Notes under the pieces: generated by a model
Seen by the model: only the letters and a program-made list of their open reading frames with translations
Told to the model about the DNA's origin: nothing
The model's database searches: none
Shown: positions 946 to 17,316 of the stretch, piece after piece
Layout: every line of letters begins with the position of its first letter
How positions within the stretch are numbered: the stretch's first letter is position 1
Position numbers and translations under genes: made by a program
NCBI GenBank assembly: GCA_964235765.1
Contig: CAXSDH010000023.1
Location: 14,306-38,305 of the forward strand
Direction: 5' to 3'
DNA from: an uncultured Acetobacteraceae bacterium
GTDB taxonomy: Bacteria; Pseudomonadota; Alphaproteobacteria; Acetobacterales; Acetobacteraceae
Length of the DNA stretch: 24,000 bases

Positions 946-1416
946 TCAGGATTGCGACATGCCGATATTGCCCTTGTAGTCGAGCCAGACGCCGGTTTTC
1001 GCGCCATTCTTGGTCGCCGTGCCGCGCCACACGCCGTCGTTGTCCTTCTTGAGGTCGGTCACGGCGGCGTAACCGCCCCGCTCGATGCGGCGGCGTGCCT
1101 CGCCCATGGTGAACGAATTGCGCCCATGCGCGGGCTGCGGCGCGTTGGCGTCGGTGGTCGCGACGGCCTGGTTGCGGTCACCCGAGGCCGCGGCCGTCCC
1201 GGTGTTGCGGTCGACCACGCCGCCGGGCGTGGTGCCGGCGCGGGTGTTGGTGCTGCTGCTGTTCGTGCCAGCGCCCGGGGTCATGGGAGCCGTGGGCGCC
1301 GTCGTGGTCATTGCGGGCGGGGTCGGGCGGGTCGGCGTCGCCGGGGTGGTGGTGGTCTGCGCCGACGCGGCGGCAGCGATCAGGCTGCTGGCCAGAACGA
1401 TGGTGAAAGTCTTCAT
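946..1416 (-). CDS. Secreted Thr/Pro-rich protein with a C-terminal PepSY-like domain
   Basis: 156-aa ORF. It has a Sec-type signal peptide (MKTFTIVLASSLIAAAASA-Q) and a low-complexity T/P/A region. The C-terminus, FTMGEARRRIERGGYAAVTDLKKDNDGVWRGTATKNGAKTGVWLDYKGNI, matches the PepSY pattern as I recall it. It lies 50 bp upstream of the YsnF-like gene on the same strand. Confidence 0.65.
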   Translation of the reverse strand: MKTFTIVLASSLIAAAASAQTTTTPATPTRPTPPAMTTTAPTAPMTPGAGTNSSSTNTRAGTTPGGVVDRNTGTAAASGDRNQAVATTDANAPQPAHGRNSFTMGEARRRIERGGYAAVTDLKKDNDGVWRGTATKNGAKTGVWLDYKGNIGMSQS

Positions 1417-2545: not shown

Positions 2546-5500
2546 TCAGCGGTTCCACTGGATCAGCAGGTAGTCGATCGCGTCTGGCGTGTCCTTCAGC
2601 AGGGTATCTTGCGTGATGCTGAAATGCGCGTCGGCGGTGGCCTGGGTGAGGCCGGTGAAGGTCATGGAGCCGAGGATGCCGGTGCCTTCGCCGTTCAGTT
2701 CGGAGTGGATGGTCAGGCCGGTGTAGCCGGCGGCGCCGTCCGATGCGGTGAAGGGCAGGGTGCTGAGGCCGGGGTGGAAGCCGAAGATGGTGGCGGCGTC
2801 GCCCTGGTGGAAGTTGACGATGGTGCTCCAGGTCTCGACCGCGCCGCGGCCGTCGACGAAGAAGGTGTCGGTGCCGCCATCGCCGCCGTCGCCGCCGATG
2901 AGGAAGTTGGAGCCGCCGCCGCCGTCGAGCACGTTTTGGCCGCCCTTGGCGAACAGCGCGTCCGCGCCGGCCCCGCCGTGCAGGAACGCGTTCGGCACGG
3001 CGGCGGCGATGGCCACGGAATCCGTGCTGTTCCAGAGGTATTCCTGTTGCAGGTAGGTCACCGGGCCGGTGTAGGCCGTCCCCTGGGCATAGCCGACGCT
3101 GTTGGTGATGACGTCGGTGTAGGAGAACTTGGGCGGGTTGCCGGCCGCGGTGTCGGCCTGCGCGCCGACGATGGCGGCGAGGTTGGCGCCGGTGTAGGTG
3201 CCGGCCACGCTGCGGCTGTCGCCGGTGGCGGCCGCGGCGGCGAGCGCCGGCGCGGCGCGGCCCTCGACGACGGTATCGACGGCGGCCACGTCGGCCAGCA
3301 GCCCGGCCGGCGAAGCGCCGTCGGCGCCGAGCTTGGCGGTGAGCAGGTCGCGGCTCGCGCTGGCCAGCGCGGCGGTGTCCGTCGCGACCTGGCCGGTGAG
3401 GCCGTACGACTGCATGGCGGCCGGGCTGGTGGGGTCGAAGGCCTGGAACGGCTGGGCGGCGATGCCGGTGGCAATCCTGATGAACAGGTCGCCGGGGGCG
3501 CCGGCCGCCTGGGCAAGCGCCATGGTCTCGAACAGCACGGCATTGGCGATGAGCGCCTGGTTGGCGGTGCCGTTGACGTTCAGCACGCCGGAGACGGGGT
3601 CGAGCATGCCAAGCTCGGTGTCGCCGGGCAGGCCGAGCGCTGCGTTCACCATGGCGGTCGCCTGGCCGATGGTGGCCCCGGTGGTGGTGAGCAGCGTCTG
3701 CACCAGGGTGGTCAGCGCGTTGATGGCCGGCGCGCCGGCGGCGGCCGTGAGGCGGCCGGTGAACGGCAGGTTGGTGGAGGTGTCGGTGCCGCCGATCAGC
3801 ACCAGCGGGCCTGTCGCGGTGCTGCCGAGGATGTAGCGGCCCTGGGCGTCGGTGGTGGCGCTCACCTCGCCGGTGGTGAGCAGGCCGTCCCCGTTGGCGT
3901 CGGCGAATATGGTGGCGCCCTGGATGTAGCCATGGGTGGCGTGGCCCATCAGGCTGGAGCGGCCGAGGCTTTCGCCGGGGAAGGTGAAGGTCTGGGCGCG
4001 GACGTCGGACGGCGTGCCGGACTTGTGCTCGCTGGCGATCAGCAGGGCGCCGTTGGCGAGCTGGGTCGCGGCCGGGTGGTAGATGCTGGTGCCGGCGGCC
4101 GGCGTCTCGCCCTCGAACTCGTCGCCGGAAAGGCTGCCATCGGGGTTGAACACCTGGGCGCGGACATTGCGGTTGACGATGGTCTTGCCGCTGAAGCCGC
4201 CAAGCCCACCCGACTCCCAGGCAATGACGAACCGCCCGTCCGCCAGCGCCGTCAGGCTGGGCGCCGCCGGCGTCCCCGGCGTGAAGCCCACCGAGTAGTC
4301 CTCGGTCAGGGCCGTGCCGGTCGCGTCGAACACGCGGGCGCGCACCACCGCGAACGGCTGGTCGGCGGTCACCAGGCTCTCATCCACCCAGGCGATGGCG
4401 ACGCTGCCGTCCAGCAGCACGGTCACCGAAGCCTTGTCCTGCGTCCCGGCCGTGCCCGTGTTGACGGTGACGGCCCGGCCGGCCGAGCCGTCGGCCGCGT
4501 AGAACTGGGCAAAGATGTCCGGGGTGCTGCCGCTCACCAGCCCGGCCCGCGCGGCGAAGGCGACGACGAAGCCGCCATCGTGCAGCCCGGCCGCCGCCGG
4601 GTCGGCCGCGTCGTAGCTGGCCAAGGGCGCGGGCACGTCGAAATTGCCGCCGACCAGGGCGTTGTCGGCGCCGATCCGCTGGCCGGTCAGCTTCCGGGGG
4701 CCGTTCAGGCTGTCGTTCGTGCGCCAGAACGCGACCAGGCCGCCGCTGCCGAGCGAGGCCACGACCGGCTGGTCCTGCGGGCCGACCCGGGCCGCGTTGA
4801 GGAACACCGCGTCGCCATCGGGCGCGCCGAACTGGTCGAAGAACCGCCCGCGAATGTCGGTGGAGCGCGTGAAGTTGCCGTTGCGGTCCGTCTCGTTGTG
4901 CCGGTCGGTCCAGGCGACGAAGAACCGCCCGCCCGAAAGGCCTGTGACGGTGGGCGAGGTCTGGTCGAAGCCATCGACGAGGCTGATGGGGATGACCGGT
5001 CCGGACTTCGTGCCGTCGGCGTTCAGCAACTGCCCCCGGATCTCGAACCGGCCGCCAGCGTCCGGACTGTCGTCGACCCAGGCCACGACCGACTTGCCGG
5101 TGGCCAGCCCGGCAATGACGGGCGTGATGCGCTGCATGGTGTCGGTGGCGCCGGGGCTCATGAGCGCCTCGGTTCCCGCGGCGGCGCTGACCAGGACCTC
5201 GGGTCCGGCAGCCGCGGCGATCTGCGGCGGAGCCGGCGGCGGCGGCGGCACGGCCTGGAACTGCCGGGTGGCGAACCCCCCGCCGTCCTGGCTGATGAGG
5301 GACGAACCCTGCCGCAGGTTGAAGTCGGCGCCCTGCTTGGCGAGGGCGGCCAGGTCCGCCTGGCCGAACACGAGGTTGCCGCCCCCGCTCGCCACCAGCC
5401 CCCCGCCATCCTGGCTGATCAGGCCGCCGCCATCCTGGCTGATCAAGCCGCCGCCATCCTGGCTGATGAGCTTGGAGCCATCGGCCAGCCGGAAGCCGCC

Positions 5501-6238
5501 GCCGTCCTGGCTGATCAGCCCGCCGCCATCCTGGGAGATCAGGCCGGGCTTGTTGACGATGGCGTAGGCAAGGCTCGCGACGGCGCTGGCCGACCCCGCG
5601 CTGAGCAGGTTCGAGTACATCGTCCCGTTCAGCAGCGCGAGCGCCCCATCGGGACGCAACAGCGAACTGTCGTTCAGCTTCACCCCGGTCGGCAGCAGCT
5701 TGTACTGCCCGGCCGGCACCTGAATTTTTATGCTGTGCACGACCAGGGCGGACGGCGCTTTCGTGTCGCCGGCGTCGGCCGAGGCAAGCAGCAGCTTGTA
5801 GTCGCCAGTCGTGTTGATGTTGAAGCTGTAGCCCGCGTGATGGGTCCGGTGCCCGTTGCCGATCCACTCGTTCACATCCCCCAGCAGCAAGGGCGTGATG
5901 AAGCCGGCCGAATTGGCGAGCAGGGCGAAGGCGAAGTCGTTATGGGCGCGGTCGCCCGGAAGGTAGTCGTAGTCCAACACCAGCTTCTCGCCCGCAACCA
6001 GGTGGATCGGGGCGAATTGCGCGGTGGTCATCGTCTGCGGGGCGTAACCCTCGATCGCCTTGATGATGCCGTTGGTATAGGCGTCGTTGGCGAAGGCGGA
6101 ATAGCCGAACCCGGTCGCAGGCTTCAGCCCGGATACGATGCGCAGCCCGTCCGACCCGGTGCTCACCTGCGCCGCATTCGCCGCGACGGCCGAGGTCTGT
6201 CCACGAGTGAGATCCAGCGAGAAGTCCAGGTTGGGCAT
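2546..6238 (-). CDS. Giant (about 1230 aa) cysteine-free mosaic repeat exoprotein with a C-terminal RTX (hemolysin-type Ca-binding) block; probable type I secretion substrate or adhesin
   Basis: ORF 2546..6328. I prefer the start at 6238 (MPNLDFSLDL) because GGAG lies 6 nt upstream, and because the 30 codons above it hold the only two Cys residues in the ORF. No N-terminal signal peptide is visible. There are four in-register nonapeptides (LHGGAGADA LFAKGGQNV LDGGGGSNF LIGGDGGDG) about 105 aa from the C-terminus. Confidence 0.85.
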   Translation of the reverse strand: MPNLDFSLDLTRGQTSAVAANAAQVSTGSDGLRIVSGLKPATGFGYSAFANDAYTNGIIKAIEGYAPQTMTTAQFAPIHLVAGEKLVLDYDYLPGDRAHNDFAFALLANSAGFITPLLLGDVNEWIGNGHRTHHAGYSFNINTTGDYKLLLASADAGDTKAPSALVVHSIKIQVPAGQYKLLPTGVKLNDSSLLRPDGALALLNGTMYSNLLSAGSASAVASLAYAIVNKPGLISQDGGGLISQDGGGFRLADGSKLISQDGGGLISQDGGGLISQDGGGLVASGGGNLVFGQADLAALAKQGADFNLRQGSSLISQDGGGFATRQFQAVPPPPPAPPQIAAAAGPEVLVSAAAGTEALMSPGATDTMQRITPVIAGLATGKSVVAWVDDSPDAGGRFEIRGQLLNADGTKSGPVIPISLVDGFDQTSPTVTGLSGGRFFVAWTDRHNETDRNGNFTRSTDIRGRFFDQFGAPDGDAVFLNAARVGPQDQPVVASLGSGGLVAFWRTNDSLNGPRKLTGQRIGADNALVGGNFDVPAPLASYDAADPAAAGLHDGGFVVAFAARAGLVSGSTPDIFAQFYAADGSAGRAVTVNTGTAGTQDKASVTVLLDGSVAIAWVDESLVTADQPFAVVRARVFDATGTALTEDYSVGFTPGTPAAPSLTALADGRFVIAWESGGLGGFSGKTIVNRNVRAQVFNPDGSLSGDEFEGETPAAGTSIYHPAATQLANGALLIASEHKSGTPSDVRAQTFTFPGESLGRSSLMGHATHGYIQGATIFADANGDGLLTTGEVSATTDAQGRYILGSTATGPLVLIGGTDTSTNLPFTGRLTAAAGAPAINALTTLVQTLLTTTGATIGQATAMVNAALGLPGDTELGMLDPVSGVLNVNGTANQALIANAVLFETMALAQAAGAPGDLFIRIATGIAAQPFQAFDPTSPAAMQSYGLTGQVATDTAALASASRDLLTAKLGADGASPAGLLADVAAVDTVVEGRAAPALAAAAATGDSRSVAGTYTGANLAAIVGAQADTAAGNPPKFSYTDVITNSVGYAQGTAYTGPVTYLQQEYLWNSTDSVAIAAAVPNAFLHGGAGADALFAKGGQNVLDGGGGSNFLIGGDGGDGGTDTFFVDGRGAVETWSTIVNFHQGDAATIFGFHPGLSTLPFTASDGAAGYTGLTIHSELNGEGTGILGSMTFTGLTQATADAHFSITQDTLLKDTPDAIDYLLIQWNR
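2864..2980 (-). other. RTX nonapeptide block (4 GGxGxD-type repeats) inside the giant gene
   Basis: Period-9 pattern L-x-G-G-x-G-x-[DN]-x read in the translation, followed by GTDTFFVDG and a Cys-free tail ending IDYLLIQWNR. Confidence 0.8.
3974..5116 (-). repeat. Seven protein-level repeats of about 56-62 residues (beta-propeller-like) inside the giant gene
   Basis: A recurrent pair of anchors. The first is VVAW / FVAW / LVAFW / FVVAF / VAIAW / FVIAW / LLIAS. It is followed 16-22 residues later by IRGQLLNADG / IRGRFFDQFG / LTGQRIGADN / IFAQFYAADG / VRARVFDATG / VRAQVFNPDG / VRAQTFTF. Confidence 0.7.
5276..5542 (-). repeat. 24-bp (8-codon) tandem repeat array encoding LISQDGGG
   Basis: Six perfect LISQDGGG units plus degenerate in-register units (FRLADGSK, LVASGGGN, LVFGQADL). 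At the DNA level the units are near-identical (gccgccgccatcctggctgatcag on the + strand), and the few differences I checked are synonymous. Confidence 0.95.
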
Positions 6239-6326
6239 CGATCGCTCCAGCAAGGCGCCCTGTCCGCATTCGTTGCAGGATGAGCTGTGTTTCAATTCAC
6301 GCCCAGGTAGCACCTTCCTCTCGCGC

Positions 6327-6364
6327 AACGAACTTTAAATTCACAAAAAAATGCTAATTTCGAT
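6327..6364. promoter_or_regulatory. AT-rich core of the divergent intergenic region between the giant gene and the leuC-like operon
   Basis: aacgaactttaaattcacaaaaaaatgctaatttcgat is the most AT-rich stretch I noticed in the window. It lies between two divergent starts (6238 minus, 6491 plus). No confident -35/-10 pair could be assigned. Confidence 0.35.
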
Positions 6365-6490
6365 GCGCCAGAAGCAACCGCCGGGCTTCCCCGGGCCACG
6401 CAGGATTGTCCGCGCCCCCCTGCGGTTTGCCAAGCTGACGCGCCAGCCGCATGATGGCGAGCATTTCCCTACGAAAACCGGGGACCACCC

Positions 6491-7906
6491 ATGCCGCGCA
6501 CCATGTTCGAGAAGGTCTGGGACAGCCACCTGGTTGCGCGCCGCGCCGACGGGCGCGCCCTGGTCTATGTCGATCGGCACGTCATCCACGACCTGCACGC
6601 GCCGCACGCGTTCCGGCATCTCGAAGCCACCGGCCGCACCGTGCGGCGGCCCGACCTCACCGTCGCCGTCGTCGACCACATGGTCTCCACCGCCGCCGGC
6701 CGGGACCGGAGCACCAACCCGGCCGCCCTGCCGTTCATCGAGCAGATCGAGGCCGGCACCAAGCGCCACGGCATCCGCCTCTTCGGCCTCGACGACCCGG
6801 CGCAAGGCATCGTCCACGTCGTCGCGCCCGAACTCGGCATCGCCCTGCCCGGCGCAACCCTGGCCTGCCCCGACAGCCACGTCTGCACCGTCGGCGCGCT
6901 GGGGACCGTGGGGTTCGCGACCGGAACCACCGAAGTCAGCCATGTGCTCGCGACGCAGACCCTGGCGATCAAGAAGCCCAAGCAGATGCGCGTCACGCTC
7001 GACGGCGCGCTTCGCCCCGGGGTCACGGCCAAGGACGTGATCCTGTTCCTGATCGGCAGGCTGGGCTCCGACGCGGCGCGCGGCCAGGCGGTGGAATACG
7101 CCGGCGCGGTCGTCGCCGCCATGCCGGTCGAGGCGCGCATGACCCTGTGCAACATGACGACCGAACTCGGCGGCCGCACCGCGGTCATCGCGCCGGACGA
7201 AAGCGTCGCCGCCTGGCTCGAAGCCCGCCGCTACGCGCCCACCGGGTCCGCCTGGGATGCCGCGGTCCAGAGCTGGCGCGGCCTGCGCACCGACCCCGGC
7301 GCGCTGTTCGACATCGACGTCGTCGTGCCGTGCAGCGAACTGGAGCCGCAGGTCACCTGGGGCACCGACCCCAGCCACGTGACCGCGGTGGGCGGCCGCG
7401 TGCCGGAGATGCCGGCGGAAGCCGGCCCGCGGGGCGCCATGGAACGGGCGGCCATGGAACGGGCGGCCGACTACATGGGGCTGCCGCCAGGGACCTCTCT
7501 GGCGGACGTCACGATCGACCGGGTGTTCATCGGCTCCTGCACCAACGGCCGCCTGTCCGATCTGCGCGCCGCGGCACGGCTGGTGGCGGGGCGGCACGTC
7601 GCCCACGGCGTGCGCGCCGCGGTGGTGCCCGGCTCGAGCGCGGTCAAGCGCGCGGCGGAGGCGGAGGGCCTGGCGGACATCTTCCTCCAGGCCGGCTTCG
7701 AGTGGCGGGAATCCGGGTGTTCGATGTGCGCCGGGCTGAACGGCGAGGACGGCAAGCCCGGCGAGCGCGTCGTGTCCACCACCAACCGAAACTTCGCCGG
7801 CCGGCAAGGCGCCGGGGTGCGGACCCATCTGGCGAGCCCGGAGACCGCGGCGGCAGCGGCCGTGACCGGGCGCTTCACCGATCCGCGCACGCTGGTTCCC
7901 GCCTGA
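6491..7906 (+). CDS. leuC: 3-isopropylmalate dehydratase large-subunit family protein (LeuC-like, aconitase superfamily); probably a paralog with altered substrate-site motifs
   Basis: 471 aa, and as I recall E. coli LeuC it aligns end to end (MFEKVWDSHLV, YVDRH, EVSHVLATQTL, RMTLCNM, PQVTWGT). The Fe-S ligand motifs IGSCTNG and GCSMC are retained, as is STTNRNFAGRQG and the HLASPETAAAAAVTG ending. Confidence 0.9.
   Translation: MPRTMFEKVWDSHLVARRADGRALVYVDRHVIHDLHAPHAFRHLEATGRTVRRPDLTVAVVDHMVSTAAGRDRSTNPAALPFIEQIEAGTKRHGIRLFGLDDPAQGIVHVVAPELGIALPGATLACPDSHVCTVGALGTVGFATGTTEVSHVLATQTLAIKKPKQMRVTLDGALRPGVTAKDVILFLIGRLGSDAARGQAVEYAGAVVAAMPVEARMTLCNMTTELGGRTAVIAPDESVAAWLEARRYAPTGSAWDAAVQSWRGLRTDPGALFDIDVVVPCSELEPQVTWGTDPSHVTAVGGRVPEMPAEAGPRGAMERAAMERAADYMGLPPGTSLADVTIDRVFIGSCTNGRLSDLRAAARLVAGRHVAHGVRAAVVPGSSAVKRAAEAEGLADIFLQAGFEWRESGCSMCAGLNGEDGKPGERVVSTTNRNFAGRQGAGVRTHLASPETAAAAAVTGRFTDPRTLVPA
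7436..7465 (+). repeat. Perfect 15-bp tandem duplication (gccatggaacgggcg x2), in frame in the leuC-like gene (AMERA-AMERA)
   Basis: Read directly: 7436-7450 equals 7451-7465. Confidence 0.95.
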
Positions 7907-8511
7907 TGCGCCCGTTCCAGGCCGTCACCGGCCGGGTCGCCCTGCTGGACCGGGACGACGTGGACAGCGATCAAATCCTGCCCGGGGCCTGGATGCGCGG
8001 CATCAGCCCGGATTTCGCGGCCGGATTCTTCGGGCTGTGGCGGCGCGACCCGGCCTTCGTGCTGAACCGGCCGGAACTGCAAGGCGCTCCCATCCTGATG
8101 GCCGGCCGCAACTTCGGCTGCGGCAGCACGCGGGAGCACGCCGTGTGGGCCGTCGCCGCCTACGGCATCCGGGTGCTGCTGGCCGCCAGCTTCGCCGAGG
8201 TGTTCCGCGAGAACTGCCTCAAGAACGGCATCCTCGCCTTGCCGCTGCCCGAAGCGGCGCTGCAAGCCGTGCGGGAGGCCCAGTCCCGCGGCGCCCTGAC
8301 CATCGACCTGGCCGCGCAACGGATCACCGGACCGAACGGCTTCGCCCTCGCCTTCGACATCGCCGCAGCGGAGCGCACCGCGTTGCTGGAGGGGCTGGAC
8401 GACATCGGCATGTCGCTGAAATACACCGAAGCGATCCAGGCGTTCGAGCTGCGCGAGCGCGGCGCCCACCCCTGGTTGCAGTCGATGCAGGAACGGCCGG
8501 CCTCACGCTGA
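7906..8511 (+). CDS. leuD: 3-isopropylmalate dehydratase small-subunit family protein (LeuD-like)
   Basis: This is the last 201 codons of track ORF 6451..8511. The ATG at 7906 overlaps the leuC-like TGA by 1 nt (TGATG). Motifs: DVDSDQILPG, MAGRNFGCGSTREHAVWA, ASFAEVFRENCLKNGIL. Confidence 0.88.
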   Translation: MRPFQAVTGRVALLDRDDVDSDQILPGAWMRGISPDFAAGFFGLWRRDPAFVLNRPELQGAPILMAGRNFGCGSTREHAVWAVAAYGIRVLLAASFAEVFRENCLKNGILALPLPEAALQAVREAQSRGALTIDLAAQRITGPNGFALAFDIAAAERTALLEGLDDIGMSLKYTEAIQAFELRERGAHPWLQSMQERPASR

Positions 8512-8537
8512 GCCCAAAGTTTAAGGAAGCTGTCGCC

Positions 8538-9431
8538 ATGAGCCCAGGCAAGCGCCTGAAGAACCTGATCGCCCGTCCGGACATCCTGGTCATGCCCGGC
8601 GCCTACGACGCGCTCTCGGCCCGCCTGGTCCAGGCGCATGGCTTCGAGGCCGCGTTCGGCGGCGGCTCCGCGGCCACCTCCAGCCTGCTGGGCGAAGCGG
8701 ATTCCGGCCAGCTCAGCATGCGCGACTACGCCGACCACTACGCCCGGCTGGCGCGGGCGATCGACATCCCGGTCCTCGTCGACGCCGATACCGGCTTCGG
8801 CGGAGTCCACAACGTGCAGCACATGGTGCGCGCCTTCGAGCGGGGCGGCGCGGCGGGCCTGTTCATCGAGGACCAGGTGTTCCCGAAGCGCTGCGGCTAC
8901 TTCGCCGGCAAGGCGGTGGTGCCGATGGCGGACATGGTCGCGAAGCTGAAGGCGGCCCTCGACGCCCGGCAGGACCCGGACTTCATCATCTGCGCCCGTA
9001 CCGACGTGCTGGGCCTGGAAGGCGAGGACGCCGCGATCGAGCGCGCCCAGCGCTTCCTGGAAGCCGGGGTGGACATGACCTTCGTGCAGGGCGCGGACAC
9101 CGCGCAGTCGCTCGCGCGGGTCTGCCGCGAAGTCGCCTGCCCGCAGCTCGCCAACGTGTCCCAGGCCAGCAGCGCCGTGCCGCTGAGCGTGGCCGAGATC
9201 GGGCAAGCCGGGGCGGCGGCGGTGATCTTCCCGGTGGCGACGCTGCGCGCGGCGATCCGGGCAGCCGACGACGTGCTCGCGGCGCTGCGGCGGGACGGCT
9301 CCATCGCCGCCGTGCAGGAACGGCTGATGAGCTCGCCCGACTTCAACGCCCTGTGCGGCCTGGAAGCGCTGCAATCGCGCGAGGACACGTTCATCCGCCA
9401 GGCCCAAGCCCTCGTCGGCAGCACTTCGTAG
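8538..9431 (+). CDS. Isocitrate lyase / PEP mutase superfamily enzyme (methylisocitrate-lyase / dimethylmalate-lyase / oxaloacetate-decarboxylase-like)
   Basis: Internal ATG at 8538 in ORF 8037..9431, with AAGGAAG 8 nt upstream. Motifs: LVMPGAYDALSARL, PVLVDADTGFGG, GLFIEDQVFPKRCGY, FIICARTD. It lies 26 nt after the leuD-like stop. Confidence 0.85.
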   Translation: MSPGKRLKNLIARPDILVMPGAYDALSARLVQAHGFEAAFGGGSAATSSLLGEADSGQLSMRDYADHYARLARAIDIPVLVDADTGFGGVHNVQHMVRAFERGGAAGLFIEDQVFPKRCGYFAGKAVVPMADMVAKLKAALDARQDPDFIICARTDVLGLEGEDAAIERAQRFLEAGVDMTFVQGADTAQSLARVCREVACPQLANVSQASSAVPLSVAEIGQAGAAAVIFPVATLRAAIRAADDVLAALRRDGSIAAVQERLMSSPDFNALCGLEALQSREDTFIRQAQALVGSTS

Positions 9432-14896: not shown

Positions 14897-14938
14897 CCAT
14901 GACAACTGCGCCATGACAACTGCGCCATGACACCAGCG
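14897..14938 (+). repeat. Tandem triplication of a 14-bp unit (ccatgacaactgcg, ccatgacaactgcg, ccatgacaccagcg), each carrying an ATG; the third ATG is the tolA start
   Basis: Read directly. The ATGs are at 14899, 14913 and 14927. The first two open identical 5-codon ORFs (MTTAP-stop), and each TGA overlaps the next ATG (ATGA). Confidence 0.9.
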
Positions 14939-15970
14939 CTTCGCCGTGGCGGCGCCGTTTCCGCCGCCTTCCACATCGCGCTCCTGCTGGCCTTGATCCT
15001 GGCGCTCCCGGCTCATGTGCCGGAGCCCGCTGCCGACGAGAACGCCATCACCATGGCCTTCGAGGCCGCCCCGGCGCCCGTGCAGCGGGCGCAGACACCC
15101 GGGCCCACGCCGGCCCCGGCGCCCGCGCCGGTGCCGACGCCGGACCAGCCCTCCCCGGAGCCGCCGAAACCCGCGCCCCCGGTGCCGCCGCCACCCCCAC
15201 CACCGCCGCCGCCGCCGCCGCCGCCCGCTCCCCCGGCGCCGCCCGCCCCGGCCCCGCTTGTGCCGCCGCCGCCTGCAACGCCCGTGGCGCCGCCCGCGCC
15301 AGTGACGACCGCGCCCGCGCCAACGCCGGTCCCGGCGCCGCGGCCCACCCCGCCCGCGCCGCACCCGCCGCCGCTGCCGCCCCCGCCGCGCCCCGCGCCG
15401 CCGCAACCGGCCCCGCCGCTGCCCGCCCCGCCCGCGCCGCCGGCGCCAAGGCCGGCGCCACCGTCACCCACGCCTGCGCCGCAGAGCAACAGCACCACCA
15501 GCCAGCCCAACCCCACCCGCAACCCGGCGCCGGAAAGCCGCGCGCTCGAAAACACCCTCGAACGCCTCCGCGCCCAGCAGCCGCAGCGCGAGGCGCCCCG
15601 CGCCGCCTACAACCCGCCCCGCGGCGGCGCCCCCGGCGGCGGCAGCCCGACCGGCGTGGACAACGCCCTGCTGAGCGCCAGCGTGCGCGGCGCCATCGGC
15701 GACCGCCTGCGCGAATGCTGGACCGGCGACCGCGGCGCGCTCGACTTCGACAAGCAGACGGTGCGGCTGGTCGTGACCACCGACACCACCGGCACGATCC
15801 GCGTCGCCGACATCGCCGCCTCCGACGCGTCCCGCACCGGCGGCGGCGTGGCCCGCGCCTTCGCCGAGCGGGCACGCCGCGCGGCGCTCGACCCGCAATG
15901 CGCGCAACTCCCGCTGCCCGGCTCCATGAAGGGCCAGAACCGCACCTTCGAGATCACGTTCCGTCCCTAG
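14927..15970 (+). CDS. tolA: Cell envelope integrity protein TolA (TonB-like proline-rich variant)
   Basis: Position between tolR and tolB. N-terminal TM anchor [18 protein letters not shown], a Pro/Ala-rich linker of about 140 aa, and a C-terminal domain ([12 protein letters not shown] through FEITFRP) resembling the TolA/TonB C-terminal fold pattern. Confidence 0.8.
15203..15223 (+). repeat. (CCG)7 trinucleotide tract inside a run of 14 consecutive proline codons (15185-15226) in tolA
   Basis: Counted directly from the sequence. Confidence 0.95.
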
Positions 15971-15984
15971 GGAAAGACCTTGCC

Positions 15985-17316
15985 ATGAACCAGTTCACCA
16001 ACCTGATCGGCCGCCGCTCCATGCTCGCCGCCGCCGGCGTCACCGCCTTCCCGTTGCTGGCCCGCGCCCAAGGCGGAGACGACCGCATCACCGTCGATCG
16101 CGCCCGCACCGCGCCGATCCCCATCGCCATCCCCAACTTCGCCGGCACCGGGCTCGGCGCCGAGATCGCAGGCGTCATTTCCAACAACCTCGGGCGCTGC
16201 GGCCTGTTCCGCCCCATCGCCCAAGCGGCGCAGATTGGCCAATCCGACGCCGGCGACACGCCCAACTTCCAAAACTGGAAGGCGATCGGCGCGCAAGCCC
16301 TCGTCACCGGCCGCGTCGAGGGCGGCGGCAGCAACGTCCGCGTCGAGTTCCGCCTCTGGGACGTGCTGCCCGGCCAGCAAATCCAGGGCACCGCCTACAC
16401 CACCACCTCGGCCAATTGGCGCCGCATCGCCCACATCATCAGCGACGTCATCTACGAGCGGCTGCTCGGCGAGAAGGGCTACTTCGATACCCGCATCGTC
16501 TACGTCGCCGGCACCGGCCCGCGCGACCGCCGGGTCAAGCGCCTGGCCATCATGGACCAGGACGGCGAGGCCAACCGCTTCCTCACCGACGGCTCCTGGC
16601 TGGCGCTCACGCCCCGCTTCCACCCGACGCGCGACCAGATCGTCTTCATGTCCTACAACAACAACAAACCCCGCGTGTACACCTTCGACCTCGGCTCCGG
16701 CGCGCAGCGCATCCTGGGCGACTACGAGGGCATGACCTTCGCCCCCCGCTTCGCGCCCGACGGCAACAGCATCATCATGTCGGTGGCCCGCGGCGCCGGG
16801 TCGGACATCGTCACGGCGGGGCTGGGCGGCGGCCGCGGCCGGCAACTGACCAACTCGGGCGCCATCGACACCAGCCCCTGCTACAGCCCGGACGGCGGGC
16901 AGATCGTCTTCAACTCGGACCGCGGCGGCGACCAGCAGCTCTATGTGATGGACGCCGGCGGCGGCAACCCGCGACGAATCAGCTACGGCAAGGGCCGCTA
17001 CGCCACCCCCGTGTGGTCGCCCCGCGGCGACCTCATCGCCTTCACCCGGCTCACCGGCGGCACCTTCGCCATCGGCGTCATGCGGCCGGACGGGCAGGGG
17101 GAGCGCATCCTCACCGAAAGCTTCTCGGTCGAAGGGCCCACCTTCGCGCCGAACGGCCGCGTGCTGATGTTCTACCGGGAAAGCCCGGCCCGCGACCGCA
17201 CCGGCGGCGGCTACTCCTCGCGCCTGGTGTCGATCGACATCACCGGCTTCAACGAGCGCACCGTGGCCACCCCCACCGATGCGTCCGACCCGGCCTGGTC
17301 GCCGCTGCTCGCCTAG
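15985..17316 (+). CDS. tolB: Tol-Pal system beta-propeller protein TolB
   Basis: Internal ATG at 15985 in ORF 15715..17316. It has a signal peptide and repeated propeller motifs ([80 protein letters not shown]). Confidence 0.95.

What the first reader, a model, noticed from the sequence alone, without database searches (positions are those of the whole stretch)
2546..6238. Orphan, cysteine-free ~1230-aa mosaic exoprotein stacking five distinct repeat/domain types
**Seen in the sequence.**
- A single minus-strand gene encodes, in order:
  - an unassigned ~175-aa N-terminal domain;
  - an LISQDGGG octapeptide array;
  - a PPPPPAPP linker;
  - seven ~57-aa propeller-like repeats;
  - a DANGDG Ca-loop plus an Ala-rich module;
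  - four RTX nonapeptides;
  - a ~105-aa C-terminal tail.
- From the preferred start there is not one Cys in about 1230 residues.
- There is no Sec, Tat or lipoprotein signal.

**Established knowledge.** A C-terminal RTX block, no N-terminal signal and little or no Cys are hallmarks of type I secretion substrates.

**Inference.**
- It is a T1SS-exported surface or adhesion protein.
- No ABC transporter, MFP or TolC-like gene is present anywhere in the window.
- Its neighbours (an aldolase-family gene and a divergent dehydratase-lyase operon) give no functional clue.
- I do not recognise the overall architecture as a characterised protein.
Basis: partly seen in the sequence, partly recalled or inferred. 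Interest (0 to 1): 0.7.

Follow-up and report, generated by a model that had tools for sequence, protein, structure and literature searches.

The report
Cysteine-free RTX-type secreted surface protein
This is a real 1,230-residue, cysteine-free bacterial protein, most likely exported by the common type I route; it belongs to an unstudied but widespread family rather than being an orphan, so it is a fairly ordinary find.

Summary
**Observation.**
- The gene is real: 2546-6238, minus strand, GC3 0.93.
- There are 0 Cys in 1,230 aa, against about 11 expected (P about 2e-5).

**What is wrong.** "Orphan" is refuted.
- About 20 unnamed homologues share the body at 35-49 % identity. All are Cys-free and lack a signal peptide.
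- The propeller repeat matches most of 14,701 cluster representatives.

**Anatomy (AF2 and profiles).**
- CBM/MAM-like β-jelly-roll
- LISQDGGG octapeptide array (not modelled)
- Pro linker
- seven-bladed propeller
- small Ca-loop β-sandwich
- Ala-rich helical bundle
- about 195-aa C-terminal module (short RTX β-roll plus β-sandwich cap)

**Key result: the C-terminal module is portable.**
- It sits at 50-75 % identity on unrelated signal-less passengers (glycosidase-like, protease, β-helix).
- It has 412 matches in species genomes, mostly Acetobacteraceae/Rhodospirillales, with at least 8 in one genome.
- Its profile hits only type I-secreted RTX proteins in the PDB.
- An Azospirillum serralysin-type protease carries a 40 %-identical copy. 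A type I secretion ABC/HlyD gene pair lies 18 kb away on the same plasmid.

**Verdict.**
- Type I secretion is well supported but unproven. No transporter genes lie in the window or within ±10 kb of 78 module loci.
- An adhesin or glycan-binding role is inferred only.
- It is a new member of a known kind; interest is modest.

The parts
2546..6238 (-). Complete CDS: 1,230 aa plus stop codon, pI 4.5, 124 kDa, 0 Cys
   Evidence: The start is supported by the conserved N-termini of homologues.
5552..6238 (-). N-terminal domain, aa 1-229: β-sandwich/jelly-roll (aa 1-~205) plus one helix (aa 214-229). It is always at the extreme N-terminus in relatives.
   Evidence: AF2 pLDDT is >90 over aa 1-225. 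The best Foldseek PDB matches are CBM15, CBM16, CBM4, CBM6 and MAM domains, with E 4e-4 to 5e-3 and TM 0.4-0.58 on the target. There is no sequence match in Pfam or the PDB. The domain recurs in P0022, P0024, P0027, P0028 and P0034, fused to FG-GAP/VCBS/CARDB/RTX.
5276..5542 (-). Octapeptide array, aa 233-321: six exact LISQDGGG units plus degenerate units (LVASGGGN and others), interrupted by a helical insert at aa ~293-313
   Evidence: TRF finds a 24-nt period with 6.3 copies. The DNA of the identical peptide units is 79-92 % identical. AF2 pLDDT is about 42, so the array is not modelled.
5225..5248 (-). PPPPPAPP linker, aa 331-338
   Evidence: Homologues have a similar APPPP segment at the same place.
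3980..5134 (-). Seven ~55-63-aa repeats, aa 369-753, inferred to form a seven-bladed β-propeller. Motif: Q..P.V..L.DG.FVVAW ... [RK].Q.F.ADG
   Evidence: Repeat alignment and blade HMM: 7 hits in the query (E 1e-12 to 1e-25), and 7 or 13-14 in relatives. It has no Pfam model and no PDB sequence relative. It is the main source of the 14,701 matches. It was not structure-predicted.
3734..3949 (-). Small β-sandwich, aa 764-835, carrying the FADANGDGLLTTGE Ca-loop-like motif
   Evidence: AF2 pLDDT is about 90-94, all strands. There is a sub-threshold CarboxypepD_reg hit, E 0.084.
3146..3718 (-). Ala-rich all-helical bundle, aa 841-1031. It is conserved in all family members, including those with other C-termini.
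   Evidence: AF2 pLDDT is 92-98, with ten helices. It is conserved in the Hint_2 and DUF5648 variants. There is no informative fold match.
2549..3136 (-). Portable C-terminal module, aa 1035-1230: lead-in strands, RTX β-roll, β-sandwich cap, ending ...IDYLLIQWNR. It is the presumed type I secretion and Ca-folding domain.
   Evidence: It is 57-75 % identical in unrelated proteins. It has 412 matches in GTDB species genomes. Its profile hits AlgE4/6 R-modules, CyaA, PrtC, serralysin and I.3 lipases. AF2 pLDDT is 85-95. Foldseek's best interpretable hits are the same proteins, with E 0.1-1.6.
2864..3016 (-). RTX-like β-roll core, aa 1075-1125: FLHGGAGADALFAKGGQNVLDGGGGSNFLIGGDGGDGGTDTFFVDG
   Evidence: Pfam HemolysinCabind matches aa 1087-1120 at 14.9 bits, below the 23-bit cut-off. 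AlgE6 R2 (2ml2) matches at E 0.007. AF2 strands start at model residues 321, 330, 339 and 348, a 9-residue spacing.
6245..6248 (-). GGAG Shine-Dalgarno-like motif, 6 nt before the ATG
   Evidence: Upstream sequence printed
6405..6433 (-). σ70-like -35/-10 match (TTGGCA-17-GACAAT) in the divergent intergenic region. Weak evidence.
   Evidence: 2 sites found against 0.2 expected. It is a consensus match only.

Best explanation
**What it is.** The gene encodes a 124-kDa acidic, cysteine-free exoprotein of an Acetobacteraceae-like alphaproteobacterium.

**Export (inferred).**
- It is exported unfolded, C-terminus first, by a type I secretion system encoded elsewhere in the genome.
- The last ~195 residues are the export and folding device. 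They comprise a short RTX β-roll followed by a β-sandwich cap.
- This device would fold on binding extracellular Ca2+ and so drive and lock translocation.
- The same module tags many other exoproteins of the same genomes. One transporter therefore probably serves many unlinked substrates. This parallels PrsDE in Rhizobium.

**Function outside the cell (inferred, weaker).**
- The protein acts as a Ca-stabilised binding or adhesion protein.
- The seven-bladed propeller and the N-terminal CBM/MAM-like jelly-roll are the likely ligand-binding parts, probably for glycans.
- The N-terminal jelly-roll leaves the cell last. It may hold the protein on the producer's own surface polysaccharide.
- The Gly-rich octapeptide array and the proline linker would serve as a spacer.

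**Shown versus inferred.**
- Shown: the domain anatomy, family membership, portability and RTX relationship of the C-terminal module, and the lack of Cys and of an N-terminal signal.
- Inferred: export by T1SS, Ca-driven folding, and the binding role.
For: 1. **Portable C-terminal tag.** The last ~195 aa recur at 57-75 % identity on proteins whose remaining sequence is unrelated.
   - Passengers include a GH5-like cellulase, another glycosidase-like protein, CAP/SCP, β-helix proteins, cyclophilin, subtilase and a trypsin-like protease.
   - The full-length carriers inspected lack an N-terminal signal peptide.
   - Most carriers are short, probably fragmentary proteins whose N-termini could not be judged.
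2. **Many copies per genome.** There are 412 tblastn-confirmed copies in GTDB species genomes. Counts per genome are 4-8 among only the best 80; MAG JBBROS01 has at least 8, and it also encodes homologue P0004.
3. **Link to RTX proteins.**
   - The module profile hits only type I-secreted RTX proteins in the PDB: AlgE4 R-module E 7e-6, AlgE6 R1 4e-5, CyaA 7e-5, PrtC 8e-4, then serralysin and I.3 lipases.
   - AF2 (pLDDT 92) gives a β-roll with 9-residue strand spacing plus a cap.
   - The best interpretable Foldseek hits are the same proteins. CyaA block V gives TM 0.48 and rmsd 3.8 Å.
4. **Azospirillum case.** In A. brasilense MTCC4039 plasmid p5 the module is 40 % identical over 161 aa (E 6e-29). 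It forms the C-terminus of an M10 serralysin-type protease with canonical RTX repeats. A C39-ABC gene and an annotated HlyD type I adaptor gene lie about 18 kb away.
5. **Propeller-only relatives.** P0029-P0040 carry strong canonical RTX and serralysin-type C-termini.
6. **Composition.** There are 0 Cys against about 11 expected, and 0 in 22,236 family residues. The pI is 4.5. This matches the profile the RTX review gives for S-layer RTX proteins (PMC3034196).
7. **Precedent for unlinked substrates sharing a C-terminus.** PrsDE secretes at least 13 proteins encoded across the genome. RL2412 and pRL90140 share only their last 150 aa (PMC2275737).
8. **N-terminal domain.** It is a confident β-jelly-roll whose closest solved folds are carbohydrate-binding modules and MAM domains.
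Against: - **No transporter found.**
  - No T1SS ABC, MFP or TolC gene is in the 24-kb window.
  - None lies within ±10 kb of four full-length homologues or two small carriers.
  - None lies near any of 78 module loci. The only exporter-like ABCs there are MsbA-like and ChvA.
  - Whether the host genome has a T1SS at all could not be checked.
- **Weak single-sequence and structural scores.**
  - The RTX block fails Pfam's cut-off on its own.
  - The structural matches of the module are not statistically significant (E>=0.1).
- **Family members without the module.** Some have a Hint_2 or DUF5648 C-terminus instead. Either those use another signal, or export of the family does not depend on this module.
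- **The binding role rests on weak evidence.**
  - It relies on weak fold similarity (E about 4e-4, TM<=0.58).
  - No ligand-site analysis was done.
  - The propeller was not modelled, and the octapeptide array could not be modelled.
Confidence: 0.6

Rival explanations
1. It is a surface-layer (S-layer-like) protein. It would be exported by T1SS like RsaA of Caulobacter. The N-terminal domain would anchor it to LPS or capsule, and the rest would form a Ca-dependent lattice.
For: - It is acidic, Cys-free and about 120 kDa, from an alphaproteobacterium. It has an RTX C-terminus and a conserved domain that is always N-terminal.
- The RTX review describes exactly this profile for S-layer RTX proteins (PMC3034196).
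Against: - No sequence similarity to any solved protein, RsaA included, outside the RTX part.
- The body is made of discrete globular modules and linkers, typical of adhesins.
- Homologues vary in propeller number and in C-terminus.
- No adjacent rsaDE-like transporter is present.
- Nothing is known about expression level.
Confidence: 0.15
2. The conserved C-terminal module is not a T1SS signal. It would be a lineage-specific sorting or attachment domain used by a different, unidentified export or anchoring pathway. Alternatively, export depends on the invariant N-terminal domain.
For: - None of 78 module loci has a T1SS gene within ±10 kb.
- The module is far more conserved (57-75 %) than ordinary T1SS signals and than the rest of the protein (35-49 %).
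- Family members with Hint_2 or DUF5648 C-termini keep the N-terminal domain at the extreme N-terminus and also lack signal peptides.
Against: - The module contains a recognisable RTX β-roll, related at profile level only to T1SS substrates.
- It ends a serralysin-type protease in Azospirillum, with a T1SS on the same plasmid.
- To my knowledge, no other pathway exports signal-less proteins through a C-terminal RTX-containing domain.
- No recurrent unknown neighbour gene was found.
Confidence: 0.12
3. It is a secreted enzyme or toxin-delivery scaffold rather than an adhesin. The propeller or the helical bundle would carry a catalytic or membrane-active function. The swapped C-termini of relatives would resemble polymorphic-toxin logic.
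For: - The C-terminus is exchanged among homologues (RTX module, Hint_2, DUF5648) on a constant body.
- Hint domains mark autoproteolytic release in polymorphic toxins (own knowledge).
- β-propellers are often enzymes.
Against: - The query's own C-terminus is the widely shared secretion-type module, not a toxin domain.
- No immunity-like small ORF follows it; the next gene is a class II aldolase.
- No catalytic family was detected by Pfam or NCBIfam.
- The helical bundle has no informative fold match.
Confidence: 0.1
4. It is a non-functional or mis-called ORF: an artefact of high GC, or a decaying gene.
For: High-GC genomes produce long spurious ORFs. A 1,224-aa ORF exists on the opposite strand.
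Against: - GC3 is 0.93, with GC1>GC2.
- About 20 homologues are conserved end to end.
- AF2 pLDDT is 92 for the C-terminal 476 aa and >90 for the N-terminal domain.
- The frame is intact.
Confidence: 0.01

Closest known systems
PrsDE (type I) substrates of Rhizobium leguminosarum that share only a C-terminal RTX-containing region (RL2412 glycosyl-hydrolase-like, pRL90140 β-helix protein); also the Rap lectins
   Same: - Signal-less exoproteins with unrelated passengers carry a conserved last ~150 aa with about 4 RTX motifs.
- The genes are scattered over the genome, away from the transporter.
- One T1SS serves at least 13 substrates (PMC2275737).
- Rap proteins are Ca-binding, polysaccharide-binding matrix proteins (abstract of PMC9298526).
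   Different: - No detectable sequence homology: tblastn of the module against 72,556 plasmids hit only Azospirillum, not Rhizobium.
- The module here is longer (~195 aa) and lineage-specific (Acetobacteraceae/Rhodospirillales).
- Secretion has not been tested.
RTX β-roll plus C-terminal cap domains of serralysin/PrtC/alkaline protease, family I.3 lipases, AlgE R-modules and CyaA RTX block V
   Same: - The module profile matches them and nothing else in the PDB.
- AF2 predicts a β-roll with 9-residue periodicity followed by capping strands.
- They are the best structural neighbours.
- A homologous module terminates an Azospirillum M10 protease.
   Different: - Only about 3 recognisable nonapeptides are present, and the sequence is below Pfam's cut-off.
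- The conserved lead-in (YxGPVxxLQxQYIW) and the ~105-aa cap have no counterpart by sequence.
- Structural E-values are not significant.
- No protease, lipase or epimerase domain is present (Zn_serralysin 12.9 bits against a cut-off of 500).
LapA / MpIBP-type giant RTX adhesins (own knowledge; not tested against their sequences)
   Same: - T1SS-type C-terminal RTX.
- No N-terminal signal.
- A dedicated N-terminal domain that exits last and could retain the protein at the cell.
- Ligand-binding modules.
- Dependence on Ca.
   Different: - No tandem Ig-like extender repeats.
- No LapG, LapD or lapBCE genes nearby.
- The N-terminal domain is a ~205-aa CBM/MAM-like jelly-roll, not the small retention plug with a di-alanine site.
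- The protein is much smaller.
RsaA-type S-layer RTX proteins
   Same: It is acidic, Cys-free and about 100-130 kDa, from an alphaproteobacterium. The N-terminal part differs in role from the C-terminal RTX/T1SS part (PMC3034196).
   Different: - No sequence similarity outside the RTX part.
- It is built from modular globular domains.
- No linked transporter is present.

Membership tests
RTX proteins (PF00353-type Ca-binding nonapeptide repeats) | Tandem GGxGxDxUx nonapeptides recognised by the family model | tested here: inconclusive
   - The single sequence scores 14.9 bits (E 0.027), below the 23-bit gathering score. Only about 3 good repeats are present.
- A profile of 29 module sequences hits AlgE4/6 R-modules, CyaA, PrtC and serralysin at E 7e-6 to 4e-3.
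- Several module carriers pass PF00353 in precomputed annotation.
RTX proteins | Parallel β-roll fold with a C-terminal capping structure | tested here: inconclusive
   - The AF2 model has pLDDT 85-95, with strands spaced 9 residues apart followed by a β-sandwich.
- The best interpretable Foldseek neighbours are RTX domains, but with E 0.1-1.6 and TM<=0.48.
Type I secretion substrates | No cleavable N-terminal signal; acidic; few or no Cys | tested here: met
   - The N-terminus is a strand of the folded domain, with no hydrophobic core, RR motif or lipobox. No signal-peptide predictor was available.
- The pI is 4.5 and there are 0 Cys, P about 1.7e-5.
Type I secretion substrates | Uncleaved C-terminal secretion signal that is sufficient for export | not testable with these tools
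   Only indirect evidence: the C-terminal module is portable across unrelated signal-less passengers.
Type I secretion substrates | A cognate ABC transporter, MFP and TolC-like OMP in the genome (often linked) | tested here: inconclusive
   - Not in the window.
- Not within ±10 kb of 4 homologues, 2 small carriers or 78 module loci.
- One distant case is present: Azospirillum plasmid p5, with C39-ABC plus HlyD 18 kb from a module-bearing M10 protease.
- The rest of the host genome could not be searched.
LapA-like (BTLCP-linked) RTX adhesins | Tandem Ig-like extender repeats, and an N-terminal retention module cleaved by LapG with lapBCE/lapDG nearby | tested here: not met
   No Ig-like repeat families appear in Pfam. 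No such genes are in the window. The N-terminal fold is CBM/MAM-like.
Serralysin (M10B) metalloproteases | Zn-metalloprotease catalytic domain N-terminal to the RTX domain | tested here: not met
   NCBIfam Zn_serralysin scores 12.9 bits against a cut-off of 500, and the match covers only the RTX part.
RsaA-like S-layer RTX proteins | Sequence or structure relationship to S-layer proteins; lattice formation; very high expression | tested here: inconclusive
   No PDB sequence match outside the RTX part. Lattice formation and expression cannot be tested here. Composition is compatible.
Hint-domain / polymorphic-toxin-like proteins | A C-terminal Hint (PF13403) autoprocessing domain followed by a variable domain | tested here: not met
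   Absent from the query. Present only in homologues P0006, P0019 and P0020.

The most novel reading that the evidence does not exclude
The ~195-aa C-terminal module may be more than a generic RTX signal. It could be a lineage-specific sorting domain of Acetobacteraceae/Rhodospirillales, comparable in logic to the T9SS CTD or PEP-CTERM.
- It tags many otherwise unrelated exoproteins per genome.
- It was not linked to transporter genes in any of 78 loci.
- It would be read by a dedicated export or attachment pathway, either a specialised multi-substrate T1SS or something not yet described.

In the same reading, two further parts would be new. The invariant N-terminal jelly-roll would be a new device that tethers such proteins to the producer's surface polysaccharide. 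The LISQDGGG octapeptide array is a cross-phylum repeat with no model and no structure, and it would belong to that device.
Probability: 0.15. Interest if true: 0.6.

Novelty: new member of a known kind. Interest (0 to 1): 0.3.

Why it matters
**For this gene.** The result mainly removes a false 'orphan' flag. The protein is another large, Ca-dependent RTX-type exoprotein, which is a very diverse and well-known kind.

**What may be useful beyond this gene.**
1. A sharply conserved C-terminal module could serve as a sequence signature to predict the type I secretome of Acetobacteraceae/Rhodospirillales. Most of these genomes are MAGs from soil and lichen-type habitats. The signature would also allow a search for the matching transporter.
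2. Four module types have no Pfam or NCBIfam model although they are abundant:
   - the N-terminal jelly-roll;
   - the LISQDGGG-type octapeptide array;
   - the 7-blade 'Q..P.V..L.DG.FVVAW' propeller;
   - the β-sandwich plus helical-bundle unit.

   The propeller accounts for most of the 14,701 cluster representatives matched, including proteins of nearly 8,000 aa. Building models for these modules would annotate a sizeable piece of 'dark' secreted proteome.

Tried and rejected

- Looking up the exact protein, or the window's FtsH, to obtain the rest of the 48.6-kb contig: neither is on record.
- A genome-collection scan with the single protein found nothing. The second scan, with the module alignment, worked.
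- A homology search with the N-terminal 230 aa alone returned nothing, not even the self match. I treat this as a tool-sensitivity failure.
- A literature search for the octapeptide motif gave only chance string matches. The Hint-domain and exoproteome search was uninformative.

**Leads tested and rejected**
- Conserved gene neighbourhood: four homologue contexts share nothing. All-against-all clustering of 951 flank ORFs from the 78 module loci gave no recurrent transporter-like family. It returned only the carriers themselves and generic ABC importer ATPases.
- Exporter-like ABC ORFs near module loci: by NCBIfam they are MsbA-like, ChvA and importer ATPases, not T1SS.
- Homology of the module to the validated Rhizobium pRL9 substrate: no Rhizobium hit among the plasmids.
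- A link between the downstream class II aldolase and the aldolase next to the Azospirillum module protein: the two are unrelated (E 0.009), and only one other locus has such a gene.
- Recent DNA-level expansion of the octapeptide array: the units are 79-92 % identical at DNA level and differ mostly at synonymous sites. This is not a fresh slippage array.
- A solved relative of the propeller: the profile search hit only the RTX parts of the relatives used.

Full report
**1. The gene is real and its sequence features are there.**
- The minus-strand ORF runs 2546..6328.
- Its third-position GC is 0.93, with GC1>GC2. That is the coding signature of this 70 % GC window; the long ORF on the opposite strand lacks it.
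  - A GGAG lies 6 nt upstream.
  - All homologues start within a few residues of the conserved 'DLSFSLDL' strand.
- The product has 1,230 aa, a mass of 124 kDa and a pI of 4.5.
- It has no cysteine.
  - Neighbouring genes contain 0.89 % Cys, so about 11 are expected and P(0) is about 1.7e-5.
  - Sixteen family members totalling 22,236 residues also contain none.
- Features confirmed at the reported places:
  - six exact LISQDGGG units;
  - the PPPPPAPP linker;
  - seven ~57-aa repeats;
  - the DANGDG loop and the Ala-rich segment;
  - a short RTX-like block;
  - a ~105-aa tail.

**2. It is not an orphan.**
- The word-indexed search found 51 relatives.
  - About 20 cover 56-100 % of the protein at 35-49 % identity.
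  - None carries a functional name.
- The exhaustive search of 1.84 billion cluster representatives gave 14,701 matches at E<=1e-3 and 864 at E<=1e-30.
  - Most match through the propeller region.
  - Many are giant proteins of up to 7,932 aa with many copies.
- The family keeps a constant body: N-terminal domain, octapeptide array, one or two propellers, small β-sandwich, helical bundle.
- The C-terminus is swapped among members:
  - the RTX-type module in the query and in P0002-5, P0007-12 and P0014;
  - a Hint_2 domain in P0006, P0019 and P0020;
  - DUF5648 repeats in P0015-18 and P0021.

**3. Anatomy from structure prediction.**
- AF2 on aa 1-345 used 25 sequences.
  - It gives a confident β-sandwich/jelly-roll for aa 1-~205 plus a helix (pLDDT >90).
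  - It gives no usable model for the octapeptide array (pLDDT about 42).
- The closest solved folds of the N-terminal domain are carbohydrate-binding modules (CBM15, 16, 4, 6, 22) and MAM domains.
  - Scores are weak but consistent: E 4e-4 to 5e-3, TM up to 0.58 on the target.
  - There is no sequence-level PDB relative.
- AF2 on aa 755-1230 used 29 sequences and is very confident (pLDDT 92, pTM 0.88). It shows three parts:
  - a small β-sandwich holding the Ca-loop-like motif;
  - a ten-helix Ala-rich bundle;
  - a β-roll whose strands start every 9 residues, capped by a β-sandwich that uses the very last residues.
  - A blade HMM finds exactly 7 units in the query.
  - It finds 7 or 13-14 units in independent relatives, which argues for closed seven-bladed units.
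  - It has no Pfam model and no solved sequence relative.

**4. The informative part is the C-terminal ~195 aa.**
- In the exhaustive search this segment alone recurs at 57-66 % identity, more than the 35-49 % of the body.
- It recurs in shorter proteins that are otherwise unrelated. The full-length ones read lack an N-terminal signal peptide. They include:
  - a GH5-like cellulase;
  - another glycosidase-like protein;
  - a CAP/SCP protein with RTX repeats;
  - several β-helix 'passenger-like' proteins;
  - an ELWxxDG-repeat protein.
- A dedicated search added a cyclophilin, a subtilase and a trypsin-like protease.
  - Where a source names the carriers, the names are 'Ca2+-binding RTX toxin-like protein', 'serralysin' or 'hypothetical protein'.
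- A scan of one genome per GTDB species with the module alignment gave 412 confirmed matches.
  - The best 80 are almost all Acetobacteraceae, Acetobacterales or Rhodospirillales MAGs. Azospirillum sp. B4 and Nitrospirillum iridis are also among them.
  - Single genomes hold 4-8 copies within the top 80 alone.
- Only two of those 78 loci carry the full architecture of the query.
- The module is therefore a widely reused C-terminal tag. The query is one of its rarer passengers.

**5. Is the tag a type I secretion domain? Evidence for.**
- The module profile hits only type I-secreted RTX proteins in the PDB: AlgE4/AlgE6 R-modules, CyaA, PrtC, serralysin, family I.3 lipases and alkaline protease (E 7e-6 to 6e-2).
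- The best interpretable Foldseek neighbours of the AF2 model are the same proteins, although not significantly.
- Azospirillum brasilense plasmid p5 provides a linked case.
  - A 40 %-identical module (E 6e-29) forms the C-terminus of an M10 serralysin-type protease with canonical RTX repeats.
  - A C39-ABC transporter and an annotated HlyD type I adaptor lie about 18 kb away on the same replicon.
- Propeller-only relatives end in strong canonical RTX and serralysin-type C-termini.
- The composition (acidic, Cys-free) matches the profile that the RTX review gives for S-layer RTX proteins (PMC3034196).

**6. Is the tag a type I secretion domain? Evidence against or missing.**
- No ABC exporter, MFP or TolC gene is in the window. 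The window is a core chromosomal ruvCAB / tol-pal / tilS-ftsH-folP-glmM region.
- None lies near four full-length homologues or two small carriers.
- None lies within ±10 kb of any of the 78 module loci.
  - The only exporter-like ABCs there are MsbA-like and ChvA.
  - No other neighbour family recurs.
- Unlinked substrates do have a precedent.
  - Rhizobium PrsDE exports at least 13 proteins encoded across the genome.
  - Two of them, RL2412 and pRL90140, share only their last 150 aa with about 4 RTX motifs (PMC2275737).
  - The module here shows no detectable homology to Rhizobium plasmid genes.
- I could not examine the rest of the host genome.
- Export by T1SS is therefore the best-supported inference (about 0.7), not a demonstration.

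**7. Function.** Nothing tested here shows what the protein binds or does.
- The most economical reading is a Ca-stabilised binding or adhesion exoprotein.
- Two candidate binding modules are present: the CBM/MAM-like jelly-roll and the propeller.
- The jelly-roll is invariably N-terminal in relatives.
  - Type I substrates exit C-terminus first (own knowledge).
  - The jelly-roll would therefore be the last part to leave the cell. That would suit tethering to the producer's own polysaccharide.
  - This is speculation and is marked as such.
- Rival readings are kept with lower weights:
  - an S-layer-like protein;
  - a different export pathway;
  - an enzyme or toxin scaffold.

**8. Octapeptide array.**
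- The LISQDGGG type ([LIV][LIV][STAG]x[DNG][GAS][GS][GSN]) also occurs in unrelated proteins of other phyla.
  - There it is often at the extreme C-terminus of Sec-signal-bearing giant proteins.
- It has no family model and I found no literature on it.
- AF2 does not model it.
- The six identical peptide units are encoded by 79-92 % identical DNA, differing mostly at synonymous sites. The peptide is conserved; the array is not a recent slippage product.
- Its structure and role remain open.

**9. Verdict.**
- The interpretation (a type I-exported surface or adhesion protein) is reasonable and now better supported for export. It is unproven for function.
- The protein is a new, uncharacterised member of the very diverse RTX/T1SS exoprotein kind.
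- Interest is modest. The reusable C-terminal module and the unannotated repeat and domain families are the parts worth following up.

Noticed in passing
window 5276-5542 (aa 233-321); also P0041, P0042, P0048, P0051 C-termini and P0043-P0049 internal: The LISQDGGG-type octapeptide (variants VISNDGGS, IVSHDSGG, LVAQGGGN, LIGEDGSS) is a cross-phylum repeat. It has no Pfam or NCBIfam model, no literature and no confident AF2 structure. In several Sec-signal-bearing giant proteins it forms the extreme C-terminus.
   Followed up: partly
window 3980-5134 (aa 369-753): The seven-blade 'Q..P.V..L.DG.FVVAW ... Q.F.ADG' propeller has no Pfam model. It nevertheless drives most of the 14,701 representative matches, including proteins of up to 7,932 aa with many tandem propellers. 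It is often followed by canonical RTX and serralysin-type C-termini.
   Followed up: partly
L022, L023, L034, L080 (module loci in Acetobacteraceae/Rhodospirillales MAGs): A ~500-aa β-helix-like module carrier ('MATRTWNG...') is the commonest carrier type, present in 34 of 78 loci. In at least four genomes it sits directly next to uvrA.
   Followed up: no
L086/L087 (Azospirillum brasilense MTCC4039 plasmid p5, record 28-62 kb): Two module-related proteins sit inside a large polysaccharide/O-antigen biosynthesis region: an M10 protease and a protein annotated 'calcium-binding protein'. That region also holds a C39-ABC/HlyD type I pair followed by a TPR protein.
   Followed up: partly
P0013 (homologue, aa ~930-1063): The C-terminal ~130 aa turn into an Arg/Pro/Ser-rich sequence unlike any relative. 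This looks like a frameshift or assembly error in that metagenomic contig.
   Followed up: no
window 946-1416 (-): A 156-aa ORF has a Sec-like signal (MKTFTIVLASSLIAAAASAQ), a Thr/Pro-rich middle and a small conserved-looking C-terminal part. It has no Pfam match.
   Followed up: no
window 6491-9431 (+): A divergent operon encodes aconitase-family large and small subunits (LeuC/LeuD-like) followed by a PEP-mutase/isocitrate-lyase-family enzyme. With the class II aldolase at 1695-2558, this suggests an organic-acid pathway unrelated to the exoprotein.
   Followed up: no
window 15001-16000: GC rises to 0.80 with strong skew. The stretch lies just upstream of the TolB domains, in the same stop-free frame (14917-17316). 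It is probably a low-complexity TolA-like coding region.
   Followed up: no
L001 18069-18614 and L002 14983-15825: PEP-CTERM (exosortase-sorting) proteins lie close to two full-length homologues. In L002 one is directly downstream of P0004. This may only show that these organisms have exosortase systems.
   Followed up: no
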